A stretch of DNA of 64,000 nt from assembly GCA_963836185.1 (NCBI GenBank), contig CAWIIQ010000001.1, positions 1,056,001-1,120,000 of the forward strand, in the 5' to 3' direction. The stretch's first letter is position 1. Each line of letters begins with the position of its first letter. Below the pieces are notes generated by a model, which was not told the origin of the DNA, did no database searches, and saw only the letters and a program-made list of their open reading frames with translations. Source of the DNA: Candidatus Krumholzibacteriia bacterium (GTDB lineage Bacteria > Krumholzibacteriota > Krumholzibacteriia > Krumholzibacteriales > Krumholzibacteriaceae). This document shows, piece after piece, positions 32,889 to 52,939 of the stretch. Position numbers and translations under genes: made by a program.

Positions 32889-35157
32889 ATGTCTTCGGCT
32901 CGTCTCGAACCACGGATTTCCAACAACGCTCTCAGAGTGCTCGAGAGAAGGTATCTGCGCAAGGACGTTAACGGAAATCTGACAGAGACGCCGGAAGAAC
33001 TCTTCCAGCGGGTCGCGGCGAATATCGCCTCGGCCGAGAGGCGTTACGGTGACAACAAGAACCGCCTGGGCTGGGAAGATACGTTCTATAACATGATGGC
33101 CACCCTCGATTTTCTGCCCAATTCGCCGACCCTGATGAACGCCGGCGCCGAGCTCCAGCAGCTCTCCGCCTGCTTCGTCCTTCCGATCGAGGACTCGATG
33201 GAGAGCATCTTCGAGACGATCAAGAACACGGCGCTGATCCACAAGAGCGGAGGAGGCACGGGATTCTCCTTCTCGCGCATCCGCCCGAGGAACGACCGGG
33301 TCAAGACGACCAAGGGCATCTCGAGCGGGCCGATCTCGTTCATGACGGTCTTCGACGCCGCCACCGAAACGGTAAAGCAGGGCGGCACGCGCAGGGGCGC
33401 CAACATGGCGATCCTTCGCGTCGACCATCCCGACATCCTCGATTTCATCACGGCGAAGAAGGACAACAGAAAACTCAACAACTTCAACATCTCGGTCGCC
33501 ATCACCGAGGAATTCATGGAGGCGGTCAAGGCTGACCGCGACTATGAGCTGATCAATCCGCACGGCGGCGATGTCGTCGACAAGATATCAGCGAAGAAGG
33601 TCTACCAGATGATCGTCGAGCTCGCGTGGAAGAACGGCGAGCCGGGGATCGTTTTCATAGACAGGCTCAACGAGGATAATCCGACGCCCAACGCGGGGAT
33701 GATAGAGAGCACGAATCCCTGCGGGGAGCAGCCGCTTCTTCCATACGAGTCGTGCAATCTCGGTTCGATAAACCTGTCGCACATGGTCACGGAAGACGGG
33801 CGACAAGTCGAAGATCGATTTCAACAAGCTCGGCGAGACGGTGCGCAGGGCGACGCGGTTTCTCGACAACGTGATCGACGTGAACCGCTACCCGCTCAGC
33901 CAGATCAAGGATCAGACACTTGCCAACCGCAAGATCGGCCTCGGCGTCATGGGATTCGCCGACGCTCTCGTCAGGATGGAGATCCCCTACGACTCGGAGG
34001 AGGCCCTCGAGGTCGCCGAAGAGATCATGGGATTCATCCAGCGCGAGTCGACCGCGACGAGCCTGGAGCTGGCCGAAGAAAGGGGAGCCTTCCCCAACTT
34101 CAAGGGCAGCAGGTTCGATACTGAGGATGCGCCGAAGCGCCGCAACGCGACGACGACGACGATCGCTCCGACCGGCACGCTGAGCATCATCGCCGGGTGC
34201 TCGAGCGGTGTCGAGCCTCTCTTCGCTGTAGCCTTCATCAGGCATGTCATGGACAACGATGAGCTCGTCGAGGTAAACCCGGTCTTCGAGGAGATCGCCC
34301 GCCGCGAGGGATTCTTCAGCGAAGAGCTGATGAAGAAGATCGCCGAGGAGGGGACCGTTCAGGGGATAGAGGAGATACCCGAGCATTGGCGGCGTATCTT
34401 CGTTACCGCGCATGATATCACGCCCGAGTGGCACATCCGGATCCAGGCAGCCTTCCAGAAATACACCGATAATGCCGTATCCAAGACGGTGAACTTTCCG
34501 AAGTCCGCCACTAAGGAAGACGTCGAATCAGTGTACATCAAGGCGTACGAGATGGGCTGCAAGGGCGTGACAATATACCGTGACGGAAGCCGTCAGGAGC
34601 AGGTCCTCAACATAGGCTCTGTCAACCGCGAGACCGAAGACGGCGAACTCGAGCTGGGCGATGATCTGGGCGGACTGCTCAAGCCGAGGCCGCGTCCCGA
34701 GGTGACGACCGGCAAGACCCACAAGATGACGACGGGCTGCGGAAACCTCTACGTGACGATCAACGAGGACGAGCACGGCCCGTTCGAGGTCTTCACGCAG
34801 ATGGGCAAGGCGGGCGGATGCTCCGCCTCGCAGTCGGAGGCGATCAGCCGGCTGATATCTCTTTCGCTGCGCGCCGGAATCGATCCGAAGCAGATCGTCA
34901 AGCAGCTCCGCGGGATCAGGTGCCCCAACCCGGGATGGGAGAAGGGCGGCATGATCCTCTCGTGCAGCGACGCGATCGCCAGGGCGATCGAGCGGTACTT
35001 CCTCGAGGAGAAGACCCCGGTCGGCCACAAGGTCACCAAGATGTCGGCGGGATACCTCGACAAGGTCGCCGGCTTCTGCCCCGACTGCGGCGGCGTGATG
35101 GAGCACGAGGGAGGCTGCGCGGTCTGCCGCGAATGCGGCTTCTCCAAGTGCGGCTAA
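32889..35157 (+). CDS. nrdJ: Class II (B12-dependent) ribonucleotide reductase with TSCPD/zinc-ribbon C-terminus; frameshift ~33805
   Basis: [34 protein letters not shown], terminal CxxC pairs. Confidence 0.93.
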
Positions 35158-35170
35158 AGGAATTCCATGC

Positions 35171-35740
35171 ATGAAAAACAGGAATTGTAGGGGTCATTCA
35201 TAATGGCCCCCGTCCCCGTCGTCCTTGTCGCCTGCGCTCACGAGGAGCTCGGCCGAAACCTCCTGACGATAGCATGGACGCGGAATCGACTGCTCCGATC
35301 CCGCGACCGTCCATGTCTCGATAAGGCCCGAAAGACACTCCTACAGGATGATCTCCGAATCAGGATGTTTCACCGTGAACATTCCGACACTCGATATGAC
35401 TGAGACAGTCGACCTGTGCGGAGTGATATCGGGCAGGGATGTCGCTGATACTGAGGGAGACAAATTCGACAGGGCAGGCCTGACAGCCCTTCCCGCAAAG
35501 ATCATAAAGGCCCCCCTCGTCGCCGAGTGCCCGGTAAACCTCGAGTGCGAGGTAAAGAATGTAATCCCCGTCGGCGTCCACCACATGTTCATAGGCGAGG
35601 TAGTCGCAAAGCACGCCGACAGCGAGGTCCTCACCGACGGCAAACTCGATTTCTCGAAGATCCCCCTTGTAACGTACGTTAACGGCGAGTACTGGTCCCT
35701 CGGAAAGCCAGTCGGAACTTACGGTTTCTCGAAAAAGTAA
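35171..35740 (+). CDS. Flavin reductase-family protein; frameshifted
   Basis: PVPVVLV, FTVNIP, ECPVNLEC, HHMFIGEV. Confidence 0.8.
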
Positions 35741-35817
35741 TGACAGGAGGAAGGACAGGCGATAAAATATAGAAAATAATGCTCCGGTTGCCATGGGTGG
35801 GGAAAGGAAGTGACGAC

Positions 35818-36789
35818 GTGGGCAATCTAAGGGAAGCTATGCGCCGGGAGCTGCGGCTCCGCAACTACAGTCCGGGCACGATCAGGACATATCTTCAGCA
35901 CATGACAGAATTCACCAGGCACTTCGGCCGAAGTCCGTCCGAACTCGGCAGGGAAGAGATAAACTCCTACCTGCTCCACATGACGGAAGTAAGAAAGGTC
36001 TCCGCCACATACAGGGACCAGGCCATAAGCGCGCTGAAATTCTTCTACGGAAGGGTGCTGAAGAAACAGCTCATCATCGAAGAACTCCCACGTCCGAAGA
36101 AAGAATTCAAACTGCCGTCAGTGCTGAGCACAAAAGAAGTAGCTCGGCTCTTCCAGGCAGTCAGAAACCGGAAGCATCTCACCATCCTGATGCTCCTCTA
36201 TTCCGGTGGTATGAGAGTAAGCGAAGTAGTCAGGCTCAAACCTGAGGACATCGATCCAGAAAGACACCTTATCAGGGTGCGAGGGGGAAAGGGACGGAAG
36301 GACAGGTACACAGTCCTCTCGGATACGGCTCTCGATGTCCTCCGTGATTATTACCTGTCATGGAAGCCGGAATATTTTCTTTTTGAGGGAAACAGGAAAG
36401 GTTCTCATCTGTCGACAAGATCGGTCCAGAACGTCGTTTCAGCGGCCAGAAAGCGTGCCGGGCTGAAGAAGAAGTTCAGCACCCATGTTCTCAGGCACAG
36501 CTTCGCGACGCACCTCCTTGAAAGCGGCACCGATTTAAGGTATATTCAAGAACTACTGGGGCACAAAAGTGCCAGGACGACACAGATCTACACACATGTA
36601 ACACGGAGGGATATCGCACGGATCGTTAGCCCGCTGGACAGGATGATGGAGGGGGAAGCAGCGGCGACAGGACCGATCGGAACATCCGAACGGAAGAAAT
36701 CTCCCACCCACCCCACCCATTTTACTGAACGTCCTCGTCGCAAACGAACCAAAAACCGTCAAAACAACGAACCGGACACACACAAATAA
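35818..36789 (+). CDS. Tyrosine recombinase (integron-integrase-like N-terminal SAM domain; no IntI-specific insertion)
   Basis: Intact R(GMRVSE)-K(KGRKDR)-H-x-x-R(HVLRH)-H(LGH)-Y(TQIY); start GTG 35818 or ATG 35779/35839. Confidence 0.95.
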   Translation: MGNLREAMRRELRLRNYSPGTIRTYLQHMTEFTRHFGRSPSELGREEINSYLLHMTEVRKVSATYRDQAISALKFFYGRVLKKQLIIEELPRPKKEFKLPSVLSTKEVARLFQAVRNRKHLTILMLLYSGGMRVSEVVRLKPEDIDPERHLIRVRGGKGRKDRYTVLSDTALDVLRDYYLSWKPEYFLFEGNRKGSHLSTRSVQNVVSAARKRAGLKKKFSTHVLRHSFATHLLESGTDLRYIQELLGHKSARTTQIYTHVTRRDIARIVSPLDRMMEGEAAATGPIGTSERKKSPTHPTHFTERPRRKRTKNRQNNEPDTHK

Positions 36790-36809
36790 ACTGTTATATG
36801 ATAGCCGAG
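36770..36809 (+). other. attI-like primary recombination site (GTT at 36793)
   Basis: AAATAAACT-GTTATATGATAGCCGAG; right part is the reverse complement (16/17) of the end of cassette 1; no attC hairpin upstream. Confidence 0.75.
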
Positions 36810-36816
36810 AGAGGCT

Positions 36817-37230
36817 ATGAGAAAGAAATACCGTAAACTTTTCACGATACTATTAGTATCAGCGTTATTGGCTTCTTGTGAAGCCAACGATATTGGAAAG
36901 TGCACACATATCCCTGTCGAAGGAGTCGCAACAATTGTCACAGTCTGAAGAGCGTTCTGAATACCAGGATTGTGGTATGGGGGTTTTATTATACATCGAC
37001 CTGGCTCCCGATTGTCCAATTTACGCTGAAAGATTTCAATACAAAATACTCGACTTCTGACTTTGTACCCCAAAAGATGGGTCGAAGCCGTTGGCTTGAT
37101 AGAAGGATCTCAGCATAGGTGTATTTACTTTGCTAAGGGTGGTCCTTGTCCTAACTATATCGTTTGGGAAGATATAGACGTACAAAGCATTGAAGATTCA
37201 TGTACTGTGTGGGCTGCGGAATCACCATGA
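36817..37230 (+). CDS. Cassette 1: lipoprotein family B; frameshifted
   Basis: MRKK...LLASC lipobox; C-terminus PKRWVEAVGLIEGSQHRC...DSCTVW matches the 49236 and 52940 proteins. Confidence 0.7.
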
Positions 37231-37254
37231 TTGGGTTATGGGAGCTCGGCCATC

Positions 37255-37394
37255 ATATAACAGCAGTGTTCGCGGCTGCAGGCCTTCGGCCTTTCGCTCA
37301 GATGGCCTTTGTCACGGCGGCCGCAGGGCGACTGCCGCGCCAACCGGGCCTGGCGGCCCGGACGGCCACCTCGCGAACACGACCAATGTTATGT
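37255..37394 (+). repeat. attC-like site 1
   Basis: ATATAAC..GTGTTCGCG..CGCGAACAC..GTTATGT. Confidence 0.9.
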
Positions 37395-37420
37395 GACATG
37401 ACATTGAGATAGGAGGGGTA

Positions 37421-38016
37421 ATGAAAAGGCTATCTGCGGTCATATTCTTACTATTGCTGATGACGTCCGCTAGCGTACTTGCTGACTCGGTACAATTTAC
37501 CATACGAGTTCATCGAGACGTTGAGGATATCTCTGCGCTAGAGGTGAAAACCTTTGAGATCATTTCGGGGGGACTATTCCCAGAAACTGAACTAGAAACA
37601 GAGATGAAGGAGAAGATTCGAGCACGGATCGAGTCTACTGGATTAGTCTATGATCCTTCAAAGAAGGACCTCTTTGTTGGTGTTATCTTTGTTGGCTTCT
37701 CCGAGCATGGGAACAAGCTACCTGGATTGGAAGATTGGCCAAGTCAAACCCATGGATCTGTTGATTCAGCTTATGCGCTTCTAACTGCAGAATCTGAGAA
37801 TACAGAAGGGCAAGGTGCATGGAGGTCCATCCAAATCCACATTCTTGCACCACCTATCAGGAAGTTCCGGTTCGGATCTGGACGGGCTCGGTTACATACG
37901 ATGGATTAGAGACCGATACTGATAAACTGGCAAATGTGATGTTGGAACAATTACTTCTTGAATATCCCGTGCCATCTGGAAAGCCAGAGTTGCGAGAAGT
38001 GATATTAAGTGAATAG
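37421..38016 (+). CDS. Cassette 2: exported hypothetical protein; frameshift ~37850
   Basis: Signal peptide, AGGAGG RBS, continues in the 37819-38016 frame. Confidence 0.7.
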
Positions 38017-38033
38017 TGGAGGGGTGTCACGTC

Positions 38034-38173
38034 ACATAACAGAGTGTTCGCGGCTGCAGGCCTTCGGCCTTTCGCATAGATGGCCTTTGTCACGGCGGCC
38101 GCAGAAGCGCCCGCCGCGCCAACCGGGCCTGAGGGCCCGGACGGCCACCTCGCGAACACGACCAATGTTATTC
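38034..38173 (+). repeat. attC-like site 2
   Basis: Near-identical copy of the repeat. Confidence 0.9.
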
Positions 38174-38200
38174 GCCACCTAACCTTGCAAAGGAGATAAT

Positions 38201-38368
38201 GTGGATGTATTGAAAATGTTGCTTCCTTTCGGGATTGCCTTTTTAGTGTTCTTAGCTATAAGGGAAGTAATGTGCTGGTACTTCAGAATTAACAATATGC
38301 TCAATATGCTCAATAGTATTGATACCAGTTTAAAAAGAATGTCGGGAAGGACAGACAGTTCTTCTTAA
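38201..38368 (+). CDS. Cassette 3: 55-aa single-TM protein (not in ORF track)
   Basis: AGGAG RBS, GTG start, MDVLKMLLPFGIAFLVFLAIREVMCWYFRIN...; fills the cassette. Confidence 0.75.
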   Translation: MDVLKMLLPFGIAFLVFLAIREVMCWYFRINNMLNMLNSIDTSLKRMSGRTDSSS

Positions 38369-38399
38369 GACAATACAATTGATTTTACGGTTAGGCGGC

Positions 38400-38539
38400 G
38401 TATAACAGTGTGTTCGCGGCTGCAGGCCTTCGGCCTTTCGCTAAGATGGCCTTTGTCACGGCGGCCGCTAGAGCGCCCGCCGCGCCAACCGGGCCTGGCG
38501 GCCCGGACGGCCACCTCGCGAACACGACCAATGTTATCT
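38400..38539 (+). repeat. attC-like site 3
   Basis: Near-identical copy. Confidence 0.9.
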
Positions 38540-38617
38540 GAAACCACACCTTATCGTGGTATAATTCAGCGTTGCGTGGATTCTGGCCACAAGACACTGT
38601 GCCCCAAGGATGATGAG

Positions 38618-40555
38618 ATGAAGAGCAAGAACCTCACAAGAGTACTGATCGCCTGCCTATTTATCATGATCTCTAACGAAATATCTGCTCAATGGTATGA
38701 CTTGGGGAATCCTGTGTTCATTGACCCGGGGATGTTTCAGGACACACACATTTCTTACGATGGCAATGGAGGCCTGTTCTTTACGTGGTGCGATTGGAGA
38801 AACGGGGGAGCCCCTTATCAGGCGGATGTCTATGCACAATATGTGAATGCTGACGGAATAGCACAATTCGGACTGTCGGGGATGCCAATCGATACGATCA
38901 GCGGCAATCAGTACAAGGCTAATGTTTCATATGTGGGAGGGGATTGCGCGGTGATTGTATGGTCGGACCTGATGGATGGATATAAATTGCGAGCTCAGCG
39001 CATTAATTCCGAAGGAATGGTATTCTGGGGAGACAGAGGTGTGGATGTATCAGAACAGTCAGGAATGGGAGAAGTCGCATCAGTGATTCCAGATATTAAT
39101 GGAGGAGCCATAATATCCTGGAGAAATTTTTATGTTTGGATTCAACGGCTGGATTCACTGGGCAATCGGATGTGGGGGGAGGACGGAATAAGAATTAACA
39201 ATATTGGGGACACTGTTGGCAGTGCTCCTGCAATTGTGAGTGATGGGGCGGGAGGCGCAATAATCGTATGGTCAGACTATCGCTCTGGGAGCATGACGCA
39301 TGACATATATGCTCAACGTGTTAACTCAAACGGGGATGAGTTATGGACAGACGGGGGATTGCCGATTAACAACAATGAAGGAGCTCAAACTCAACCCTCA
39401 ATAGTGTTTGACGGAAATAACTCCTTTATCAGTTGGTTTAACAATACATGGGACATCGGTGTTCAGAAAATAGATCACGATGGTAATCTCTTATGGAATG
39501 TTAATGGAGTATATATTAGTCCAATAGAGCCCAGACCTAAGTATCGAGCCATGGCTGCCGATAATCATGGAGGTGTGATTGCCGCTTGGGAAGATTTTAG
39601 GAATACGAGTTCAACTGAATCTGATATTTACGCTCAGCGGATTCGCTCAGATGGGGAGATTGCATGGGATATAGATGGTATTGCGATTTACATTGGTGGA
39701 GGGGATCATCAACAGCCAGCAATTTCTACCACATCATCAGGCGATGCTATCATTGTTTGGACTAATTATTATGGAATTTACGCACAACGAGTGGATACCA
39801 GCGGAGCAATATATTGGCCAGAATACGGTGAAAACATTTCAAGAGGGCCAGGGTGCCAACACTGGCCACTTATCCAGAACATCGATGACAAAGAATTATT
39901 CGTTGTGTGGAATAAGAATGAGAATGATGCATGTTATGGAAACGACGATTTATATGTTCAAAAGATTGATCTTGAAGGACACATTGTAGGCACATTTCTA
40001 GATCAGGCCGAATGGTATTGTGTCTCTGATGAAATATGTTTGAAATGGTCGATTGTCTTATCCGCAAATAATCTTGAATTCATTATACTGCGCACATTAA
40101 GCGGAGAGCATAAGTACAGAGAAGTTGGCCGGATTATTGGATTCGAACGTCAATCCGAATTTTGCTATATTGATAGCACATGTAAACTTGGGGAAAAGTA
40201 CATATATCGTGTTATCGCTTCCATGGAAGATGATGAGATGTTGCTTTTTGAAACTACAACAATCCTGATGCCAAATCTAAAGTATGTTCTTCATCAGAAT
40301 TATCCGAATCCGTTCAATCCAATAACCAAAATCTCATACAGTCTGCCAAAACAGTGCATCGTCAGCTTAAAGATATACGATATTATGGGAAAAGAGATTG
40401 TATGCCTTGTTAACAATCAATTGCAGCAAGGTGAACAGGTAATACATTGGGATGGTAAAAACCACTTCGGAGATCTTGTTTCTTCCGGAACATATTTTTG
40501 CAAGCTTTTTGCTGGAAAACAGACAAAAGTAATTAAATTGATATGTCTGAGATGA
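38618..40555 (+). CDS. Cassette 4: secreted repeat (propeller-like) protein with FlgD/T9SS-like C-terminal domain
   Basis: Repeated DG.GGAIIVW.D.R..DIYAQR units; QNYPNPFNP; signal peptide. Confidence 0.85.
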   Translation: MKSKNLTRVLIACLFIMISNEISAQWYDLGNPVFIDPGMFQDTHISYDGNGGLFFTWCDWRNGGAPYQADVYAQYVNADGIAQFGLSGMPIDTISGNQYKANVSYVGGDCAVIVWSDLMDGYKLRAQRINSEGMVFWGDRGVDVSEQSGMGEVASVIPDINGGAIISWRNFYVWIQRLDSLGNRMWGEDGIRINNIGDTVGSAPAIVSDGAGGAIIVWSDYRSGSMTHDIYAQRVNSNGDELWTDGGLPINNNEGAQTQPSIVFDGNNSFISWFNNTWDIGVQKIDHDGNLLWNVNGVYISPIEPRPKYRAMAADNHGGVIAAWEDFRNTSSTESDIYAQRIRSDGEIAWDIDGIAIYIGGGDHQQPAISTTSSGDAIIVWTNYYGIYAQRVDTSGAIYWPEYGENISRGPGCQHWPLIQNIDDKELFVVWNKNENDACYGNDDLYVQKIDLEGHIVGTFLDQAEWYCVSDEICLKWSIVLSANNLEFIILRTLSGEHKYREVGRIIGFERQSEFCYIDSTCKLGEKYIYRVIASMEDDEMLLFETTTILMPNLKYVLHQNYPNPFNPITKISYSLPKQCIVSLKIYDIMGKEIVCLVNNQLQQGEQVIHWDGKNHFGDLVSSGTYFCKLFAGKQTKVIKLICLR

Positions 40556-40602
40556 TTATATACTCAATTTGAGCACTATACTTATAAGTCAGGTGTGGCT
40601 TC

Positions 40603-40742
40603 AGATAACAGAGTGTTCGCGGCTACAGGCCTTCGGCCCTTCGCTCAGATGGCCTTTGTCACGGCGGCCGCTAGAGCGCCCGCCGCGCCAACCGGGCCTG
40701 GCGGCCCGGACGGCCACCTCGCGAACACGACCAATGTTATCC
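40603..40742 (+). repeat. attC-like site 4
   Basis: Near-identical copy. Confidence 0.9.
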
Positions 40743-40777
40743 GACATCTTATTGAAGCTTAAAGAGGTGAAATTGCT

Positions 40778-41409
40778 ATGAAAATGATGAAGCCAATTGT
40801 TGTTCTGATAGTACTGATACTCCTGTTCTCGGTCGCAAAGTATGTCAGAGTTCAAGCATTTCATATTAGAAAGTGAGAGCAAGGTTGAGCTTCCTAATTA
40901 TTTTTATGATGACCTAGAGCCATACGTTACAACAATAGATCGCCAGCATTCTGACAAAGAGGATGATTCGCCTTGCTGAATCTGTTTATCCACCAAGAAG
41001 GAAGATGCTTGAGAAGCATCCAGGTTTGCCAGAAGAAATGGTAGCAGATTCACTGTGGGTGGCTGAAGAGCACGGCGATTTAAAAATACCCTACACACTA
41101 ACTGCGAGTGCAGTTCGGTACTATATTGATCTGATGAAGAGGTACGAAAAGAAGGACGAAACGCTCGATAGTATCCCGAAAAATGCAAAGTTAACATATA
41201 AAGCAGACATGCACGGTCCATCAACTTTCATTATTAATGGTGAATTGTATGAAAATGTTAAGGTTGTAACCCTTGAGTTAAGCTGGTCCACCTATACTAA
41301 TGCTTTGAATGCTGGAGGATTCAGTATTGTCAAGTTTGTGATTTTCGACAGGGAGAAGAATATTCTGGGTGTGTTTGGGGATGGATTCCCTGGAGAATGG
41401 GCGTCATGA
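40778..41409 (+). CDS. Cassette 5: exported hypothetical protein; frameshifted
   Basis: GAGGTG RBS, signal-like start at 40778, main ORF 40963-41409. Confidence 0.6.
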
Positions 41410-41437
41410 ACATTGGGAATATCCAATAGAAGACGTC

Positions 41438-41576
41438 GGATAACAGAGTGTTCGCGGCTGCAGGCCTTCGGCCTTCGCTCAGATGGCCTTTGTCACGGCG
41501 GCCGCTGGAGCGCCCGCCGCGCCAACCGGGCCTGGCGGCCCGGACGGCCACCTCGCGAACACGACCAATGTTATTC
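41438..41576 (+). repeat. attC-like site 5
   Basis: Near-identical copy. Confidence 0.9.
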
Positions 41577-41999
41577 GCCATGTGGCAGATGAATAAATTT
41601 AACTTCGATTTCTTCTTATTTTTTAGGACTCTTCTTTCCCCGCAGTACAGCCCCATCCAGCCTCAGGGTGACTTCCGGAGTCTCTAAAGCCTGATCGATC
41701 CAGTACCTCATATTTTCTCCGATGTTAAGGCCTAGACTCGTGCCGTAACGGGCCTGAGGGTGGCTTGCGGCTGAGACTGAGATCCTCGATCCTGAGGTTT
41801 TAAGGGGCCGAGATTGGTAGGGGAGAGCTCGTAAGGAACTTGCTTTCAACGATCGGGGCAATTCAGCGTACGACTTCGGGTCGCGCTGTCGCATCTTTAT
41901 CAGCCAAGGGTTGGCTGAAAGACTATTGAACCGGAGAGATTAAAGGATTAGATTTATAGGTGAGGGGTGATCTAGTATGAATTCCACACGGCGTATAAC
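41570..41999 (+). other. Cassette 6: near ORF-less cassette, homologous to cassette 8
   Basis: Bounded by matching inverted ends; shares sequence blocks with 45214-45645. Confidence 0.8.
41926..41954 (+). promoter_or_regulatory. Sigma-70-like promoter in cassette 6
   Basis: TTGAAC-N17-TAGATT, conserved in cassette 8. Confidence 0.65.
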
Positions 42000-42106
42000 A
42001 GAGGTGTTCGCGGCTGCGCATGTCACCCGGCCTGCAGAGCACGCCGGGCGCCAATGCTTCGCGTACACCGCCTGCGGCGGCGTCGCGAACACTCACAATG
42101 TTATAC
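41993..42106 (+). repeat. attC-like site 6 (divergent interior)
   Basis: Same ends and GTGTTCGCG/CGCGAACAC stem, different loop. Confidence 0.85.
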
Positions 42107-42125
42107 GATAAATGCCCTTATTCCT

Positions 42126-42155
42126 TTGACATATTCAATTCTACATAGATAGAAT
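42126..42155 (+). promoter_or_regulatory. Cassette-borne promoter of the kinase gene
   Basis: TTGACA-N18-TAGAAT, 8 nt before ATG, no RBS. Confidence 0.55.
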
Positions 42156-42163
42156 CTCCATAC

Positions 42164-45062
42164 ATGTTAGGGGAAACAATCTCACATTATGAAATTCTCG
42201 AGAAGCTCGGCGAGGGCGGGATGGGCGTAGTCTACCGCGCCCGTGACACGAAGCTCGACCGCGAGGTGGCTATCAAGCTCCTGCCCCCGCACCTGAGCTC
42301 CGATCCCGAGGCGGTAAAGAGGTTCGTCCATGAGGCGAAGACCGCCTCGGCCCTGAACCACTCCGCTATAGGCGTCATCCACGAGATAGACGAGACGGAT
42401 GACGGCCAGACGTTCATCGCAATGGCCCTCTACGAGGGGGGACTCTCAGGGAGAAGCATCGACAGCGGCAGCATGACATCTAGGCGAAGCAGTAACCATA
42501 GCCTCCCAGATAGCCTCGGGTCTCGACCAGGGCCCACGAGAAGGGGATAGTCCACAGGGACATCAAGCCGCAGAACATACTTCTGACCAGAGACGGCGAG
42601 GCGAAGATAATCGACTTCGGCCTAGCGAAGCTCGCCGGAAGGACGAAGCTGACGAGGGACGGGAGTACGCTCGGCACTGCCGCCTACATGTCCCCCGAGC
42701 AGGCGAGGGGAGAAGAGGTCGATCACCGTTCGGACATCTTCTCTCTCGGGACGATCCTGTACGAGATGCTCGCCGGTGAGCCACCATTCAAGGGGGAGCA
42801 CGAGGCGGCGTTGCTCTACGGGATAGTGCACGAGGAGCATGAAGAGATATCGGAGAAGTGCGGGGGCATAGCACCGGAATTGTGCAATGTGGTCGGAAAG
42901 ACGCTGAAGAAGGAAAAGGAAGCAAGGTATCAGAACGCGGCGGACCTGAAAGCTGAATTGAAGAGGTCGAGCACCGGCAGTGTCGATGAGGGCGGACCGA
43001 GGGATACGAAGGACGCTGGAAGAGGTAAAGGGTTCTGGATAGGCATTGCGGCGGTCACCGTGACACTCACAACTGCCGTACTTCTCGTAATGACCGGACG
43101 TGAGCCGGCGCCGCTTACCGCTTCGGAGATGACTCTCGCTGTGGTTGATTTTAATGACCTAGCAACAGAACCGGATCCTATAAAATCCAAGACGATTACA
43201 GAGCTGCTAAATACCTCCCTGGGAGATTTCTGTCCGATACGCGTTCAGAGCCCGGAACGAGTAAGGGAATGTCGAAGACAGCTTTTCGGTTCAACTGAAG
43301 CGCAGATAGAGGAAGGGCAGGAACTGGAGATCGCGCGCAGGAGCGAAGCGACCTATTTGCTTACTGGCAGCATCAGTGTCGTTGGCAACGACGGTTTTAT
43401 CTCTTGGAGGCTCATAGATGTACTAAGTGGGACTATCATCAAGGCCGGAACAGTCGAACCAGGTGAGATGATGGCAGTAGTTGATAAGATCGTGGAGGTC
43501 GTATTGCCGGAGATCGCAGAAGCTTCGGGAGTTGAGCAGACTGCAGAGCAGGTTTCCGTGGCACAATCTCGACATCTTCACAGCAGGCGTTTGAGCATTA
43601 CGTTAGGGGTAAGATAAATCATGACAGCGATCGTCCAGTCGAAGCACTCGATGAATACACGAAAGCTGTCGGATTAGATTCCAGTTTTGCTCTTGCCTGG
43701 TTTGCTATGTCTAGACTCTACTATGGTGCCATGATGATTAGGTATGATCCGGCACTTTATAATAAATACAATGAGCTTGCCTTAAGGTATGAATCCAGGA
43801 TGGGCACCAAGGAGAGGATGCAGCTTCGTGCTATTAATCTTGGAGGAGTCAAAACGATAGAAAAACTCAAGGAAATCCTCGAGCTCTGGCCTGATGACCG
43901 CGAGACGCTGCAGATGCTCGTCCTCAGAACCCACTATAATTGGATGCAAAAAGAATGTATCGAGTACTCTCGAATCGGATTGACGCTATACCCGGAAGAC
44001 CAGGTTTTCGGAGGAAGTATCTATATCACATCTCTTAATAATTTGGGTCTAAGCCAAGAAGCGATGAAGGCGTCCAGAGAATTTATCAGAAAATATCCTG
44101 ACGATTCGGCAGCTTGGCGTTCTCTTGCCGAGACATTTGTGGTCATGGGGCAACCGGACAGTGCCGAGGCGATCTGCAGAATAATTTTGGAGAAATATCC
44201 TGAAGGCAGCCAGAATGCAGAGGCAAGGCGGATGATAGCACGATGTGCATATCTTGCAGGCGATCTAGATGAATCGATTTCAAGGTATGATAGATTATTG
44301 TCAGACGCGAACCTGGATGAATCTACTCGTCAGGAGATTCTTTCTAACTATACTCACATTATAGATCTTACTTATGTATATCGAGAAGCTGGCCGCTACT
44401 ACGACGCCTTGCGGACCTTGAATGAGGCAAGACCGTACTTCGGCAACCGACCTGATCGCTGGGAATTACAAATGGGCTATCTGCTAGTAGATATTGGCAG
44501 GAACAAGAATGCGTTGAAACTCGCTGAAGAGATGCTTGCATCAGATAATATGCCAATGCAGAGGTATGCCAGACGATTCATGGGCAAGGCGCAAGTTAAT
44601 AATGGTGATATCCAAGGTGCTCAGGAAACTGTATCGATACTGGATGGACTTGGCATAGTCAGGGGACCTATCTACAAGTACCATTCATTTTTCACTCAGG
44701 CATATATTGCATTGGCAAGGAATGATGCTTCAGTGTCTCTAAAGCATCTTGATGATGCGGCCCAGATAGTGGGCTTCTCATACTGCATGTTCGGAATCGA
44801 GCTGAAGACATTGCAGGCGGAGGCGAACAGACTGGCAGGGGACCTGGAGGCGGCAGCCTCGATCCATGAAGAACTGCTGAGGATTCATGGCGGACATGCA
44901 TTGTCACACTTCGAACTCGGTAAACTGTATGAGGCAATGAGAAGAACGGACGAGGCAAAACTGCACTATAATAGATTCCTAGAGATGTGGAATAACGCTG
45001 ATGATGGATTACCTCAACCTGCACTCGCGAGGGAGAGACTGACAGCGCTTAAAGGTGTTTAA
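42164..45062 (+). CDS. Cassette 7: Hanks-type Ser/Thr kinase-TM-TPR protein; several frameshifts
   Basis: [38 protein letters not shown]-terminus. Confidence 0.85.
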
Positions 45063-45081
45063 ATAGAGCAGGGCTTTCATC

Positions 45082-45220
45082 GCATAACAGTGTGTTCGCG
45101 GCTACAGGCCTTCGGCCCTTCGCTCAGATGGCCTTTGTCACGGCAGCCGCAGGGCGACTGCCGCGCCAACCGGGCCTTGAGGCCCGGACGGCCACCTCGC
45201 GAACACGACCAATGTTATCC
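45082..45220 (+). repeat. attC-like site 7
   Basis: Near-identical copy. Confidence 0.9.
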
Positions 45221-45645
45221 GCTATGTGGCAGCTGATTGAATTTATCTTCGATCTTTTCTTTTTATTGGGACCCTTCTTCCCGCCCATCCCAACCATTAC
45301 CAGCCGGAGGTCGACTTCCGAGAGTCTCTAGAGCTAGTTCTGCAAGGTGACGAGTCCAACCCCTGTAAGAATAATGCCTCTATAGATGATCCGGCCTGAG
45401 GGTGGCTTGCGAGGCGCGACTGAGATCCTCGGGTCAAGAGGCTTTAAGGGCCGAAATAGGGGTAGGGGAGCGATCGTCAGGGACTTGCTATCATCGGTCT
45501 GAGGCAGGTTCATCTCTCGACTTCGGGAGGCGCAGTCGCAGTTCTATCAACGGGTCAACGCCGAAAGACTATTGAAAGTTCGAGATTAACGGTATAGATT
45601 TAGAGGTGAGGGGTGCCTATATATGAATTCCACACAGCGGATAAC
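45214..45645 (+). other. Cassette 8: near ORF-less cassette, homologous to cassette 6
   Basis: Ends GTTATCCGCTATGTGG / CCACACAGCGGATAAC; shared blocks with cassette 6. Confidence 0.8.
45572..45600 (+). promoter_or_regulatory. Sigma-70-like promoter in cassette 8
   Basis: TTGAAA-N17-TAGATT. Confidence 0.65.
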
Positions 45646-45767
45646 AGCAGTGTTCGCGGCTACGGGCCTTGAGGCCCTCGCTCAGATGGCCTTTACCGGC
45701 CTTTGGCGCGCCGGCCAACCGGGCCTGAGGCCCGACGACCAACTCGTTAACATGACCACTGTTATGG
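45639..45767 (+). repeat. attC-like site 8 (degenerate right arm)
   Basis: Left arm canonical; right arm CTCGTTAACATGACCACTGTTAT. Confidence 0.75.
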
Positions 45768-46291
45768 AGGGACGTTTTAGAAAATGTAACATACGAATCA
45801 TTCTGGTTGTTCTCGTCTTAACTTCAGCTCTTATATCCTGTGGAGAGGATAGCTGTGAGTGCCCTACACCTAATCCTATTGAATACACCAGCGTTGTGTT
45901 CTACTACAAAGATCATCCATATTGCTATTCAAGTACTGCTGGATTAGAGGTAGAGCTTTATGTCGGTGATGAACTCATAGGGTATTGGCATTATGGCTCT
46001 AATCCAGCAGATCCAAATCTAGATTATCCTAATTCGCAACCTTTTCCGGTTGAGCTCGGAAGTGCCTTGAACCTTGAATTCAGGTATTGGGATAAATCAG
46101 GTCATGAGATGAGAGACACAGCAAATCTCATCATGGATGATGAAGATTGCACTTACGTCAGTTTCTTTGCCGACATAGAAAATCCCTGCCTGGGTGCTGA
46201 GTTATGTGATAGTTGTATTGTTTTTGAGATCGATGAAAACATGAAGTGTGAGGGTGCTGATTCAATCTATGTCGCTGTAGTGACTAATTGA
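45764..46291 (+). CDS. Cassette 9: Cys-rich lipoprotein
   Basis: LISC lipobox; start uncertain. Confidence 0.7.
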   Translation: MEGRFRKCNIRIILVVLVLTSALISCGEDSCECPTPNPIEYTSVVFYYKDHPYCYSSTAGLEVELYVGDELIGYWHYGSNPADPNLDYPNSQPFPVELGSALNLEFRYWDKSGHEMRDTANLIMDDEDCTYVSFFADIENPCLGAELCDSCIVFEIDENMKCEGADSIYVAVVTN

Positions 46292-46304
46292 TGGAGACAG
46301 CGGC

Positions 46305-46445
46305 ATATAACAGTGTGTTCGCGGCTACGGGCCTTGCGGCCCTTCGCTCAGATGGCCTTTGTCACGGCGGCCGCAGAAGCGCCCGCCGCGCCAACCGGGC
46401 CTGGCGGCCCGGACGGCCACCTCGCGAACACGACCAATGTTATCC
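46305..46445 (+). repeat. attC-like site 9
   Basis: Near-identical copy. Confidence 0.9.
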
Positions 46446-46461
46446 GCAAGCGTATTATGAT

Positions 46462-46857
46462 ATGAACAAGTTCCCAGCAATATTTTTTTTGTCACTCCTT
46501 CTGGCTTCCTGCCGAGATCCTTTCGCGCATGAATGGGAAAACTTATATCAGCTCAGCGCAGATCAGATTATTCTACCCGATACTGCTCAAATATTTCAAC
46601 CGATGCAGGTCAAAGTGCAGGTTACTTTAGATACATCTAATCATAATTACAAAGACCAATATATCGAAACAACACCAGATGGCTATCTGATAGTGCTGAT
46701 TGGTGTAATAGAAGATACGAGATTTCCAGATAATGACCCGGATCCCAGAACAGAATGGCATTCTTTTAACCTTATCCCATTTAAGAAAGGAGAAGTAATC
46801 ATTGAGGGGAAACGAGTCAATTCAGAGAATCTTATTGATTCAGTGTATGTTCAGTAG
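46462..46857 (+). CDS. Cassette 10: lipoprotein family A
   Basis: LASC lipobox; PDT, EWHSF, DSVYV motifs. Confidence 0.8.
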   Translation: MNKFPAIFFLSLLLASCRDPFAHEWENLYQLSADQIILPDTAQIFQPMQVKVQVTLDTSNHNYKDQYIETTPDGYLIVLIGVIEDTRFPDNDPDPRTEWHSFNLIPFKKGEVIIEGKRVNSENLIDSVYVQ

Positions 46858-46870
46858 TGGGCACGCCTGC

Positions 46871-47010
46871 GCATAACAGAGTGTTCGCGGCTACGGCCTT
46901 CGGCCTTTCGCTCAGATGGCCTTTGTCACGGCGGCCGCTGGAGCGCCCGCCGCGCCAACCGGACTTGGCGGCCCCGGACGGCCACCTCGAAAACACGACC
47001 AACGTTATAC
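46871..47010 (+). repeat. attC-like site 10
   Basis: Near-identical copy. Confidence 0.9.
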
Positions 47011-47039
47011 GAAAGGCCGGGAAGCGATAAAAAAGAACC

Positions 47040-47075
47040 TTGACAGATATGCATATATGATGCATACTGATGCAT
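47040..47075 (+). promoter_or_regulatory. vapBC promoter/operator
   Basis: TTGACA-N17-CATACT overlapped by three ATGCAT palindromes. Confidence 0.65.
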
Positions 47076-47271
47076 ATGAGAACTACACTGAATATTGACG
47101 ATGATCTGATTCGCAAGGCAGCGAAGATGACAGGGATCAGCGAGAAGACTTCCCTGGTACGCCTCGGGCTTGAAGCATTGATCGCTCTTGAGAGCGCGAG
47201 AAGGCTAGCAGCTCTTGGCGGCACAGAGAAAGATCTTGGCCCTGATTCCTCGCAAACGAACGAGTTCGTGA
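47076..47271 (+). CDS. vapB: Cassette 11: VapB antitoxin (RHH type)
   Basis: MRTTLNIDDDL..EKTSLVRLGLEALI; apparent +1 indel fuses it to vapC. Confidence 0.85.
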
Positions 47272-47273
47272 GT

Positions 47274-47630
47274 ATGATCCTGGCTGATACATCTGTATGG
47301 ATCGATCATCTTCGCAATGGAAACAAGCGGATGGCTCTTTTTCTGAACGAAGGTGTCGTTTTGTGTCATCCTTTCATACTCGGGGAATTGGCCTGTGGGA
47401 ACCTCAAAAACAGAGCTAAAATACTCGATATGCTTGCTTCCCTTCCGACAATGCCAGTTGCAGAGCACAGTGAAGTGCTTGATTTCATTTCCCGATACAA
47501 ATTCCAAGGGAAGGGTATAGGGTGGATCGATGCCCATCTGTTGGCATCAACATTTCTGGCGAAAAGCCGAATCTGGACTCTCGACAAATCTTTACTAAAG
47601 ATAGCAAAAGACCTGAAGGTCTCAATATAG
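47274..47630 (+). CDS. vapC: Cassette 11: VapC PIN-domain toxin
   Basis: MILADTSVWIDHL, GELACG, IDAHLLAS, WTLDK. Confidence 0.9.
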   Translation: MILADTSVWIDHLRNGNKRMALFLNEGVVLCHPFILGELACGNLKNRAKILDMLASLPTMPVAEHSEVLDFISRYKFQGKGIGWIDAHLLASTFLAKSRIWTLDKSLLKIAKDLKVSI

Positions 47631-47662
47631 GGCAATCAAAAGGTTTAGTAGCCGGCCACTTC

Positions 47663-47803
47663 GTATAACAGAGTGTTCGCGGCTGCGGGCCTTGCGGCCC
47701 TTCGCTCAGATGGCCTTTGTCACGGCGGCCGCAGGAGCACCCGCCGCGCCAACCGGGCCTGGCGGCCCGGACGGCCACCTCGCGAACACGACCAATGTTA
47801 TCC
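47663..47803 (+). repeat. attC-like site 11
   Basis: Near-identical copy. Confidence 0.9.
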
Positions 47804-47820
47804 GAAAGCGCGGGATATGT

Positions 47821-48202
47821 ATGAATAAAAAAATCGCATTATCGATCCCATTACTTCTTGTAGTTGCATGTAATCTATTCAAGCCACCTGAAAAGATACA
47901 AACATGGGCTGATGTCGAACAGATTGTTGTTCCTGATACTGTTGACTATTTCGAAGCTTTCGAGATCAGCGCTGAAATTTCAATGGACCATACATGTAAG
48001 TATGTAGGTCCTGTGCTGGAAGAAACTTCTGAGGGCTGCTCCATTACCATTATCGTTGAATCTGTGGAAGTGAGCTTTCATGAAAAGGATATTTCTGAGT
48101 GGCATACCTTTACTCTGAGACCTCTCGAATTGGGATCTTACATCATCAGGGTGAAAAGTAAGAATGTGGAAGATTCTTGTTGATTCAACTTACGTTCGTT
48201 AG
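47821..48202 (+). CDS. Cassette 12: lipoprotein family A; probable frameshift near the 3' end
   Basis: VVAC lipobox; VEQIVVPDT, EWHTF; LVDSTYVR in the adjacent frame. Confidence 0.75.
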
Positions 48203-48212
48203 ATGCGCCATC

Positions 48213-48353
48213 GGATAACAGTGTGTTCGCGGCTACAGGCCTTGCGGCCTTTCGCTCAGATGGCCTTTGTCACGGCGGCCGCAGGAGCGCCCGCCGCGCC
48301 AACCGGGCCTGGGGGCCCGGACGGCCACCTCGCGAACACGACCAATGTTATGC
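48213..48353 (+). repeat. attC-like site 12
   Basis: Near-identical copy. Confidence 0.9.
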
Positions 48354-48369
48354 GAAGGCGAGGGGAACA

Positions 48370-48759
48370 ATGAAATTAGCGGTTGGAATAATTGCAATTA
48401 TCGTTATTTGCTCTTCCTGCGAAGATCCACCAGTAAAAGTATGTGACCGACCAGTAATGTTGGAAGTAGAACAGTTGATGGCTCCGGATTCTTGCAGGTT
48501 AGGTGAGCAGGCACAATTACAAGTCGAAGTAATTCTTAACGGTTCAAGTTATAGTTATTTCGGCCCCGACATTAACGACACAGATTCGGGTTGTAGAATA
48601 AGGATTATGGGAGAAAAAGATGAATGTGCACTTAACACTCCTTGCATTTGCTACGAGTGGCATTCGTTTGTTATTTCCCCCTCACAAACGGGAATATACA
48701 TAATAGAGATAATTAATTCTCAAGCTGATGATTTAGCGGATACAATAACAGTGTATTAG
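48370..48759 (+). CDS. Cassette 13: lipoprotein family A
   Basis: CSSC lipobox-like; VEQLMAPDS, EWHSF, DTITVY. Confidence 0.8.
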   Translation: MKLAVGIIAIIVICSSCEDPPVKVCDRPVMLEVEQLMAPDSCRLGEQAQLQVEVILNGSSYSYFGPDINDTDSGCRIRIMGEKDECALNTPCICYEWHSFVISPSQTGIYIIEIINSQADDLADTITVY

Positions 48760-48769
48760 CTGTGCCATC

Positions 48770-48908
48770 GGATAACAGAGTGTTCGCGGCTGCAGGCCTT
48801 CGGCCTTTCGCTCAGATGGCCTTTGTCACGACAGCCGCAGGGCGACTGCCGCGCTAACCGGGCCTGGCGGCCCGGACGGCCACCTCGCGAACACGACCAA
48901 TGTTATGT
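48770..48908 (+). repeat. attC-like site 13
   Basis: Near-identical copy. Confidence 0.9.
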
Positions 48909-48935
48909 GCAATGCTGTGCATTAATTTAAAGGGG

Positions 48936-49100
48936 ATGAAGTTGAAGAAACTATCTCTGATCATCGGAATTCTCGCATTAGCCGTTGCAATAATCATCTT
49001 CATATATGCTTCTGGTGCTAGGCGAATTTATAGCGGCCTCTTATTTATATTGATAGCTATCATCCAATTCACTTTTGCTCTTCGAAAAGGTGATAAATGA
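48936..49100 (+). CDS. Cassette 14: small two-TM protein
   Basis: Two hydrophobic helices; fills the cassette. Confidence 0.75.
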   Translation: MKLKKLSLIIGILALAVAIIIFIYASGARRIYSGLLFILIAIIQFTFALRKGDK

Positions 49101-49116
49101 TCAATAAGGGCACTGC

Positions 49117-49189
49117 ACATAACAGAGTGTTCGCGGCTGCGGGCCTTGCGGCCCGGACGGCCATCTCGCGAACACGACCAACGTTATGC
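49117..49189 (+). repeat. attC-like site 14 (short, internal deletion)
   Basis: 73 bp; both arms intact, central ~67 bp missing. Confidence 0.85.
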
Positions 49190-49235
49190 GAAAAGCCGCA
49201 GACGTTAAAACCTACCCCTGGGAGGAGATGATGTG

Positions 49236-49692
49236 ATGTTGAAATCAGGAATGTTCATCATTGCCGCTGTTTTTTTTATTCTCGCTCCTTATTTCTTGTG
49301 AGGATGAAGAAGGCATCATTTGTGGGGGAGAGTGCCTTTATCATGAGATACCAGGCACAGCATCTATTATTTCTGTTACTGATATTGATGGATCTACCTA
49401 TTGTGGAGATCCTGTCGAGGTGATTTACAACTTTACTCCAGATGATCCAAGCGATATTGATCCAGACTATTTGACGATTTGGCCACTCGATAATATTTAC
49501 TACAAGATAGGTCAAAACAATCCGCCACGAAGATGGGTTGAAACGCATGGACTTCTGGCAGGAACAGACCATCCATGTACAAGATTTAGGATTTACAAGG
49601 GATCTTGTGTGCCTGTTGGATACAATTTTGATGGCATAGATGATTACAGTGTCTCTGATTCATGTGATGTATGGGAGCAAGAGATACCATAA
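49236..49692 (+). CDS. Cassette 15: lipoprotein family B; poly-T frameshift near the start
   Basis: GGAGGAG RBS; LISC lipobox; GTASIISV, FTPDDPS, PPRRWV, DSCDVW. Confidence 0.75.
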
Positions 49693-49716
49693 GTAAACTT
49701 GATTACTGCGACCACC

Positions 49717-49847: not shown

Positions 49848-49875
49848 GGCATGCAGTTCATGGCAGGGGAATAAA

Positions 49876-50639: not shown

Positions 50640-52859
<2,220 letters not shown>

Positions 52860-52939
52860 AAGGAAAGATTAAGGTATCGATTAGTTTAATAGATGCTCAT
52901 GAGGTCAGGAAAATCCTAAATCTCTTTCAGGAGAGGGGT

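What the first reader, a model, noticed from the sequence alone, without database searches (positions are those of the whole stretch)
35818..36809. Recombinase lacks the IntI I2 patch; attI sits 3 bp after its stop codon
Seen: KGRKDR is followed directly by LRDYYLSWKPEYFLFEG with no LPxALxRKYP-type insert, and all catalytic residues are intact. TAA (36787-36789) is followed by ACT-GTTATATG, the start of cassette 1. The last ~45 codons are a low-complexity tail read through AC-rich DNA. Known: the IntI insertion contacts extrahelical bases of folded single-stranded attC. Inference: this enzyme recognises its hairpin differently, attI overlaps the 3' end of the gene, and the recombinase transcript or an internal promoter may drive the proximal cassettes.
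Basis: partly seen in the sequence, partly recalled or inferred. Interest (0 to 1): 0.75.

Follow-up and report, generated by a model that had tools for sequence, protein, structure and literature searches.

The report
Integron-like array run without IntI insertion
A tyrosine recombinase that lacks the protein segment thought essential for integron integrases sits at the head of a 14-kb array of swappable gene cassettes, with the insertion site overlapping its stop codon, and it is likely the enzyme that runs this array, which would make it a second kind of integron beside the ordinary one in the same genome.

Summary
The ORF 35818-36789 is an intact tyrosine recombinase with PF13495 and PF00589 domains and all six catalytic residues. 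It lacks 41 residues that every aligned IntI has, and residues 292-323 of its tail are predicted disordered. Its TAA stop lies inside a conserved core, AAATAAACTGTTAT (36784-36797).

Three independent junctions place cassette exchange in the TGTTAT of that core. Fifteen attC-like hairpins follow (37250-49853).

The enzyme is not a degenerate IntI. It falls in the insertion-less sister group of IntI, next to IS91-linked recombinases. Orthologues sit at the same chromosomal site in three families of the order.

The same genome has a canonical IntI about 980 kb away with its own classical attC array. The two attC types are not mixed in this genome. The window's sites have no bulged base in the L stem. 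Instead they carry an asymmetric loop beside the R box.

Best reading (about 0.65): this enzyme is the dedicated integrase of a second, insertion-less integron type. No biochemistry exists, and promoter drive of the proximal cassettes is untested.

Earlier notes of this scan report the same kind of system on other DNA (Bacteroidota, Patescibacteria, a spirochaete). The nearest published description I found is the rAID-1 clusters of Bacteroidales.

The parts
35818..36789 (+). Insertion-less IntI/Xer-like tyrosine recombinase (323 aa from GTG 35818; an upstream ATG lies at 35779). Catalytic core ends about residue 284; the tail is disordered.
35740..35768 (+). Promoter-like site upstream of the recombinase (ATGACA-17-TAAAAT). 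Consensus match only.
36700..36797 (+). attI region. About 100 nt of DNA is conserved within the genus even where the reading frame ends earlier (G004). It contains AACGAACC at 36743-36750 and 36766-36773, which are possible accessory binding sites (inferred).
36784..36797 (+). attI core AAATAAACTGTTAT. The TAA stop is at 36787-36789 and the exchange occurs within TGTTAT at 36792-36797.
36793..37391 (+). Cassette 1, which ends with attC 37250-37400.
37250..49853 (+). Fifteen type-A attC sites, starting at 37250, 38029, 38395, 40598, 41433, 41988, 45077, 45634, 46300, 46866, 47658, 48208, 48765, 49112 and 49712. A partial copy lies near 50457.
50655..55300 (+). Distal flank. The 734-aa ORF at 50655-52859 directly follows a cassette in relative G003. 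From 55355 on the sequence is syntenic with G006. The array therefore ends near 50.6 kb.
32889..35740 (+). Conserved proximal flank (long ORF pair 32889-35157 and ORF 35348-35740), syntenic in seven relatives.

Best explanation
The recombinase at 35818-36789 is likely the dedicated integrase of a second, non-canonical integron. It would insert and excise cassettes by recombining the attI core that overlaps its own stop codon with folded type-A attC hairpins, without the I2 segment that IntI uses.

Shown:
- The enzyme is intact and lacks the insertion.
- It lies in the sister group of IntI.
- The gene, attI core and array form one module held at one chromosomal site across three families.
- Cassettes have moved at TGTTAT.
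- The type-A sites keep their pairing through compensatory changes, and the bottom strand folds more stably.
- In G000, type-A sites occur only in this array and not beside the canonical IntI.

Inferred:
- The folded R box (ATAACA/TGTTAT) and L stem each offer an AACA/TGTT arm, so together they would mimic a Xer-type core site.
- The asymmetric loop (2-3 nt against 6 nt) would replace the extrahelical bases as the cue for strand choice and for blocking the second strand exchange.
- The junction would then be resolved by replication, as in integrons and in CTX-phi/XerC integration.
- Read-through from the recombinase gene would express the first cassettes.
For: Enzyme. PF13495 and PF00589 are both present. 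NF040815 scores 245 against a cut-off of 220, and TIGR02249 scores 231 against 265. The 41-residue gap is shared with four other insertion-less relatives. The model has mean pLDDT 84, and its best fold matches are 2a3v and XerA 5hxy, tied.

Phylogeny. The 16 IntIs form one clade (support 100) on a long stem. The window protein lies in the starred 83-row sister group, and the orthologue clade of 17 rows has support 98. One search gave the same picture with 75 rows.

Module.
- Orthologues of 56-82% identity occur in 17 of 41 genomes searched, spread over three families.
- The upstream flank is syntenic in seven relatives.
- The core AAATAAACTGTTAT is exact in seven genomes of two families and differs at one position in G010.

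Junctions.
- The first cassette of G001 equals window 41569-42098, with the two alignments overlapping on TGTTAT.
- The first cassette of G002 equals window 46438-46687.
- A contig of run X1 joins an attC end (38531) to 36792, with 6 shared letters.

Sites.
- The consensus fold has a 6-bp R box, a 9-bp L stem paired in 11 of 11 sites, and a 2-3/6 nt loop.
- The 3' spacer is 3-6 nt longer than the 5' spacer in the sites of seven other genomes.
- Eight of nine L-stem pairs show changes on both sides. 93.9% of cells pair, against at most 48.7% when the partners are slid.
- The bottom strand is more stable in 11 of 12 sites, by a mean of 8.5 kcal/mol.

Orthogonality.
- All + strand model hits in G000 lie at window 37250-49853 and none lie near the canonical IntI.
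- The canonical array has classical sites, GTCTAAC...GTTAGGA, and its own attI.
- Of 16 genomes with type-A hits, 14 hold the orthologue or a fragment of it, while 8 hold a canonical IntI.
- Of the 25 genomes without type-A hits, 12 hold a canonical IntI.

Wider spread. More distant insertion-less relatives (42-51% identity) head arrays with the same loop asymmetry in metagenome contigs L065, L076, L083, L087 and L088.
Against: - There are no biochemical or genetic data.
- A canonical IntI exists in the same genome (418 bits) and in 20 of 41 relatives. IntIs are known to accept varied attC sites, so action in trans is not excluded.
- Deleting the insertion abolishes IntI1 activity, according to the eLife 2020 paper, which cites Messier and Roy (passages read).
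- Most relatives of the enzyme belong to IS91 elements and not to arrays: 33 of 55 downstream ORFs are IS91-type.
- Two genomes with type-A sites (G003, G019) show no orthologue, although both arrays stop at contig ends.
- Five genomes with the orthologue show no type-A hit.
- G027 has a second type-A array with no recombinase beside it.
- The relatives are kin, so the co-occurrence counts overstate the evidence.
- The alignment used for pair counts was fitted to the model and contains reverse-strand rows.
- Core matches with 3 substitutions also occur about once per 10 kb elsewhere.
Confidence: 0.65

Rival explanations
1. The array is a cassette cluster served in trans by the canonical IntI encoded about 980 kb away. 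The adjacent insertion-less recombinase would then be a bystander or an accessory factor.
For: A canonical IntI is present in G000 and in 20 of 41 relatives. Cury et al. [quoted passage not shown] G027 has a type-A array without an adjacent recombinase.
Against: - No type-A site lies in the canonical array of G000, and the canonical array has a different attI and classical attC sites.
- Six of 16 genomes with type-A sites gave no canonical IntI match (G005, G008, G014, G018, G019, G029).
- The attI core travels with the insertion-less gene across families.
- The L stems lack the bulged bases that IntI docks.
- The canonical intI of G000 is frameshifted near codon 62. This may be an assembly error.
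Confidence: 0.13
2. The adjacent enzyme is the integrase but works on double-stranded DNA like an ordinary Xer or lambda-type recombinase, using TGTTAT as a 6-bp overlap region. The hairpin potential of the repeats would then serve something else, such as termination or cruciform formation.
For: The shared identical stretch at all junctions is exactly 6 bp, which is the size of a classical overlap. The enzyme lacks the segment linked to single-strand recombination. The nearest relatives are Xer-type.
Against: - The sequence to the right of TGTTAT is not conserved, so no second binding arm exists in duplex form.
- Pairing of the R and L boxes is kept by compensatory changes across genomes.
- The bottom strand is consistently the more stable one.
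Confidence: 0.12
3. The recombinase is the leftover of an IS91-type element, or some other relic, that landed at the head of a frozen array and no longer acts.
For: The closest wider relatives are IS91-linked (33 of 55 loci; trees). Earlier notes of this scan describe IS91 elements that home to attC sites.
Against: - No ORF of transposase size (about 390-400 aa, as in the IS91-linked loci) starts after the gene. The + strand ORFs that start between 36790 and 38400 are at most 162 aa, and the 715-aa ORF at 38408 follows two further attC sites.
- The orthologue clade is separate from the IS91-linked clade, which has support 98.
- The gene sits at the same chromosomal site in three families, with catalytic residues intact.
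- First cassettes differ among the six genus members examined, and a variant junction exists in a metagenome.
Confidence: 0.05

Closest known systems
Sedentary chromosomal integrons of the co-oriented ('inverted integrase') type, with IntI, attI and attC (structure: VchIntIA, PDB 2a3v)
   Same: - A tyrosine recombinase with a SAM-like N domain heads the array.
- attI lies just after the gene, and the cassettes are co-oriented.
- The sites are imperfect palindromes with AAC...GTT ends, and exchange occurs in the GTT box.
- The bottom strand folds better.
- The array differs between close relatives.
   Different: - The enzyme lacks the 41-residue IntI segment and lies outside the IntI clade.
- The sites have no bulged base in the L stem and instead have a 2-3/6 nt asymmetric loop beside the R box.
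- The R' box is GTTAT, not GTTRRRY.
- The attI core includes the stop codon.
rAID-1 clusters of Bacteroidales (Ross et al.; preprint 10.1101/471110, passages read)
   Same: A XerD-family recombinase sits at the 5' end, followed by co-directional low-GC genes and by repetitive intergenic sequences that the authors called reminiscent of integrons.
   Different: rAID-1 is described from Bacteroidales and defined by its immunity-gene content. Neither the homology of its recombinase to this one nor the fold of its repeats was tested here. The passages I read state no link to the missing I2 segment or to an attI.
IS91-family elements that carry an upstream tyrosine recombinase
   Same: These are the closest wider protein relatives, and they share the same gaps relative to IntI.
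   Different: Here no Y2 transposase follows the gene. The gene is fixed at one chromosomal site and heads a cassette array.
XerC-mediated integration of folded single-stranded CTX-phi at dif (as described in PMC7790495)
   Same: A recombinase without I2 acts on a hairpin that mimics a duplex core site, with only one strand exchange. This is the model for the mechanism proposed here.
   Different: That system uses the host XerCD and dif and has no cassette array. The analogy is inferred and was not tested.

Membership tests
Integron integrase IntI (TIGR02249; IntI-specific domain) | Tyrosine recombinase catalytic domain with the R-K-H-R-H-Y residues | tested here: met
   PF00589 matches at 4e-42. 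R133, K158, H223, R226, H249 and Y258 are invariant columns.
Integron integrase IntI (TIGR02249; IntI-specific domain) | IntI-specific additional domain (I2 helix, patch III region) | tested here: not met
   There are gaps of 31 and 10 columns against three IntIs. The match to 2a3v and to the profile comes in two pieces.
Integron integrase IntI (TIGR02249; IntI-specific domain) | Score above the curated family cut-off | tested here: not met
   231.1 bits against a cut-off of 265.
Integron integrase IntI (TIGR02249; IntI-specific domain) | Placement inside the monophyletic IntI clade | tested here: not met
   The 16 IntIs form one clade (support 100). The window protein lies in the sister group. 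These are quick trees with limited IntI sampling.
Integron (as a system) | Recombinase gene next to an attI at which cassettes are inserted | tested here: met
   The core is conserved, and three natural junctions fall on TGTTAT. Catalysis by this enzyme is not shown.
Integron (as a system) | Array of cassettes separated by foldable attC sites with R''/L''/L'/R' boxes | tested here: met
   There are fifteen sites.
Integron (as a system) | Extrahelical bases in the L box of attC | tested here: not met
   The 9-bp L stem is fully paired in 11 of 11 sites. The unpaired bases lie beside the R box instead.
Integron (as a system) | Promoter that drives the proximal cassettes | not testable with these tools
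   Only consensus matches were found. Contigs from RNA libraries cover 36551-36755 but do not show transcription.
Archaeal XerA (NF040815) | Score above the cut-off | tested here: met
   245 bits against a cut-off of 220.
Archaeal XerA (NF040815) | Acts at a dif site for chromosome dimer resolution | tested here: inconclusive
   The host is bacterial by the source names of close homologues. Two other Xer-like genes exist in the genome. No dif site was sought.
IS91-linked tyrosine recombinase | Y2/IS91 transposase gene immediately downstream | tested here: not met
   The + strand ORFs that start between 36790 and 38400 are at most 162 aa. In 33 of 55 relatives' loci the next ORF is an IS91-type transposase.
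rAID-1 (Ross et al.) | Recombinase at least 44% identical to the B. fragilis rAID-1 XerD-like protein, and immunity-gene content | not tested
The criteria were read.

The most novel reading that the evidence does not exclude
Cassette capture through folded attC-like hairpins is older than the I2 insertion. IntI and these insertion-less array recombinases would descend from an ancestor that already ran cassette arrays, I2 would be a later refinement, and the IS91-linked recombinases would be an offshoot. Integrons would then be one branch of a wider, overlooked family of gene-capture platforms.
Probability: 0.3. Interest if true: 0.9.

Novelty: new variant of a known kind. Interest (0 to 1): 0.75.

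Why it matters
Current models hold that the I2 segment both defines integron integrases and enabled recombination of single-stranded hairpins. The eLife 2020 paper states that I2 and single-strand recombination occur only in IntI (passages read). IntegronFinder discards recombinases that lack the domain.

A conserved, apparently active cassette array headed by an insertion-less enzyme from the sister clade, living beside a canonical integron without mixing, offers three things. It is a natural test of whether I2 is needed. It is a pair of orthogonal systems for experiments. It also suggests that surveys undercount gene-capture platforms in uncultured phyla.

Tried and rejected
- Rfam gave no match in the window at gathering thresholds.
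- The genome-contig scan with the single protein returned only three close relatives and four distant ones, so little was added.
- My strict hairpin descriptor is brittle. It missed the G006 sites, whose R'' box is altered, and the classical sites.
- Run depth and the parts of the array without cover in the four runs say nothing. The RNA-library contigs over 36551-36755 and 37256-37363 do not show transcription.
- Sigma-70 consensus scans may not apply to this phylum.
- Secondary loss of the insertion within IntI was rejected on the trees.
- An IS91 element at the array head was rejected on ORF content and synteny.
- Five literature searches found no paper that describes an integron integrase without the insertion heading an array, apart from rAID-1. 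Subscription journals are not covered.
- I did not run complex prediction, the viral collections or the protein atlas.

Full report
**What is there**

The window is G000:C1:1056001-1120000. GC content falls from about 0.59 to about 0.48 just after 36000.

The ORF 35818-36789 (+) encodes a 323-residue protein. It has a SAM-like N domain (PF13495) and a tyrosine recombinase catalytic domain (PF00589). Its best NCBIfam model is NF040815, 'site-specific tyrosine recombinase/integron integrase', at 245 bits against a cut-off of 220. The integron-integrase model TIGR02249 scores 231 bits, below its cut-off of 265, and matches in two pieces.

Against the solved VchIntIA structure (2a3v) the match is again split: query 8-177 and 195-276 against chain 9-179 and 239-320. 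In a direct alignment with IntI1 and two canonical IntIs of this clade, the protein has gaps of 31 and 10 columns. These gaps cover the ...ALPDALxRKYP...W.W... segment and the following loop. Four other insertion-less relatives share exactly the same gaps.

The six catalytic residues are invariant in a 58-sequence alignment. An AlphaFold model has mean pLDDT 84. It shows a short hairpin where IntI carries I2, and pLDDT is below 50 for residues 292-307 and 314-323. Its best fold matches are VchIntIA and archaeal XerA, tied.

**The site after the stop**

The TAA stop (36787-36789) lies inside AAATAAACTGTTAT (36784-36797). The same 14-mer follows the orthologous gene in G001, G002, G004, G005 and G006 (same genus) and in G026 (another family). 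G010 has it with one change, about 30 nt after the stop. Versions with 1-3 changes follow the gene in G027, G015, G013, G031, G025, G008 and G024. None was found in G018 or G023. Such loose matches also occur by chance about once per 10 kb.

In G004 the frame stops about 100 nt earlier, yet the DNA stays conserved up to GTTAT. The AC-rich 'tail' is therefore conserved as DNA and not as protein.

**Cassettes have moved at this site**

- The alignment of G001 to the window runs through the gene to 36797. It resumes at window 41569-42098, and the two pieces overlap on TGTTAT. The first cassette of G001 is thus the sixth cassette of G000, where it follows an attC.
- The first cassette of G002 matches window 46438-46687.
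- A contig of public run X1 joins 38412-38531 (an attC, 4 differences) to 36792-36917 (cassette 1, no differences), with 6 letters shared at the joint.
- At least three different first cassettes occur among the six genus members examined.

**The array**

A covariance model built from 11 sites finds 15 sites on the + strand between 37250 and 49853. A partial copy lies near 50457.

In G003 the 734-aa ORF at 50655-52859 directly follows a cassette, and in G006 synteny resumes at 55355. The array therefore ends near 50.6 kb.

The consensus fold has a 6-bp R box (ATAACA/TGTTAT), an asymmetric loop of 2-3 nt on the 5' arm against 6 nt on the 3' arm, a 9-bp L stem paired in 11 of 11 sites, and a branched tip. 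Extra length on the 3' arm recurs in seven other genomes even though their stem sequences differ: the 3' spacer is 3-4 nt longer in six of them and 6 nt longer in G025.

On a model-fitted alignment of 61 rows, 93.9% of cells pair, against at most 48.7% when the partners are slid. Eight of nine L-stem pairs show changes on both sides. The caveats are that the alignment is fitted to the model and includes reverse-strand rows. The bottom strand folds more stably than the top in 11 of 12 sites, by a mean of 8.5 kcal/mol with DNA parameters.

**A canonical integron in the same genome**

G000:C1:2072034-2072864 (-) matches TIGR02249 at 418 bits. It is 56.7% identical to IntI1. It carries the ALPDALSRKYP segment.

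It is followed, in the same orientation, by its own attI (ACATAACGTTAGACC) and by classical attC sites (GTCTAAC-6 nt-TTGCAGCTG ... CAGCTGAA-6 nt-GTTAGGA). These have symmetric spacers and one extra base in L''.

This intI has a frameshift near codon 62. The long gene just upstream of the recombinase in the window is also split into two overlapping frames (32889-34124 and 33841-35157). Assembly indels are therefore possible, and I draw no conclusion from the frameshift.

No type-A model hit lies near the canonical integron. One classical site gives a weak hit of 21 bits.

**Distribution in 41 genomes (G000 and 40 relatives)**

- Orthologues of 56-82% identity occur in 17 genomes of three families, mostly with the 3' end of the gene at a contig end. 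Fragments occur in four more.
- The upstream flank is syntenic in seven relatives.
- A canonical IntI above the cut-off occurs in 20 of 41.
- Type-A model hits occur in 16 of 41.
- Of those 16, 14 hold the orthologue or a fragment. The other two, G003 and G019, have arrays that run off contig ends.
- Of those 16, 8 hold a canonical IntI. Of the 25 genomes without type-A hits, 12 hold a canonical IntI and 7 hold the orthologue or a fragment.

These genomes are kin and many are incomplete, so the counts are descriptive only. G027 also has a second type-A array with no recombinase beside it.

**Phylogeny and the wider family**

All 150 best representatives in the 1.84-billion-protein library are insertion-less on the listed stretches. 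142 match in one stretch and 8 match in two, and the best stretch spans the site of the insertion in every row except P0251.

In a 112-row tree rooted on the two other Xer-like proteins of G000, the 16 IntIs form one clade (support 100, stem length 0.95). That clade is sister (91) to a starred group of 83 insertion-less rows. The 17 orthologues form a clade (98). A separate clade (98) holds 30 IS91-linked rows. One search agrees.

Of 80 metagenome loci, 55 had a + strand ORF of at least 120 aa starting soon after the gene. 33 of those are IS91/Y2 transposases.

Other loci head arrays of hairpins with the same loop asymmetry. L065 has 3 sites and groups with the orthologues. L083 has 3 sites by my descriptor and further repeats. 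L076 has 3 sites, and L087 and L088 have 1 each. The last four lie together in a second clade.

**Mechanism**

Shown:
- The enzyme is intact and insertion-less.
- The gene, attI and array form a conserved module.
- Exchange occurs within TGTTAT.
- The sites are selected for structure and are biased to the bottom strand.
- The array is separate from the canonical one.

Inferred:
- The enzyme recognises the folded site as a mimic of a Xer-type core. The R box and the L stem both present an AACA/TGTT arm.
- The asymmetric loop would take over the role of the extrahelical bases in strand choice and in preventing the second exchange.
- Resolution would be by replication.
- Two AACGAACC words at 36743 and 36766 may be accessory binding sites.
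- Expression of the proximal cassettes by read-through is plausible. No terminator-like site was found on the + strand between the gene and cassette 1, and promoter-like matches lie at 36518-36546 and 36773-36802. This is untested.

**Comparison with what is known**

Cury et al. 2016 found 50 recombinases without the IntI domain near attC sites. They concluded that such enzymes are not IntI (passages read). Escudero et al. 2020 state that I2 and single-strand recombination are exclusive to IntI, and that deleting I2 kills IntI1 (passages read). Ghaly et al. 2022 define archaeal IntIs by the additional domain (passages read).

The preprint of Ross et al. describes rAID-1 clusters in Bacteroidales with a XerD-family recombinase and integron-like intergenic repeats (passages read). 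This is the nearest published description. Its homology to this system was not tested.

Five searches found no paper on an insertion-less integrase heading an attC array.

Earlier notes of this scan report the same kind of system in Bacteroidota, Patescibacteria and a spirochaete. They are unchecked AI notes and were not used as evidence.

**Verdict**

I file this as a new variant of a known kind. Confidence that this enzyme runs the array is about 0.65.

Noticed in passing
window 32889-35157: The long conserved gene upstream of the recombinase is split into two overlapping frames (32889-34124 and 33841-35157). This is either a frameshift or an assembly indel. Together with the frameshifted canonical intI, it suggests that indel errors occur in this assembly.
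   Followed up: no
G000:C1:2063430-2073041 (L008, L009): A complete canonical integron of the co-oriented type. Its intI is 56.7% identical to IntI1 and frameshifted near codon 62. Its attI is ACATAACGTTAGACC, and at least five classical attC sites follow.
   Followed up: partly
window 41569-42098 and 45213-45670: Two diverged copies of one cassette. The same cassette is the first cassette after attI in G001. G004 and G005 have the same first about 20 nt after attI, and the short stretch of G005 that is held matches window 41569-41659 at 79% identity.
   Followed up: partly
L061 (G027:C1:334000-341000): A second array of type-A sites in G027 with no recombinase gene beside it, about 65 kb from a canonical IntI fragment.
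   Followed up: partly
L083, L087, L088, just after the recombinase stop: In these metagenome relatives, a pair of long inverted repeats lies between the recombinase stop and an AAGTTAGG/AAGTTATG word that looks like their attI.
   Followed up: no
L032 5929-8089 (G006): The type-A sites of G006 read TATCAG where G000 has ATAACAG, so the R'' box is altered while R' is kept.
   Followed up: no
window 50655-52859: A 734-aa ORF lies directly after the last attC. Very high contig depth from many organisms in all four runs laid marks it as a widely conserved gene.
   Followed up: no
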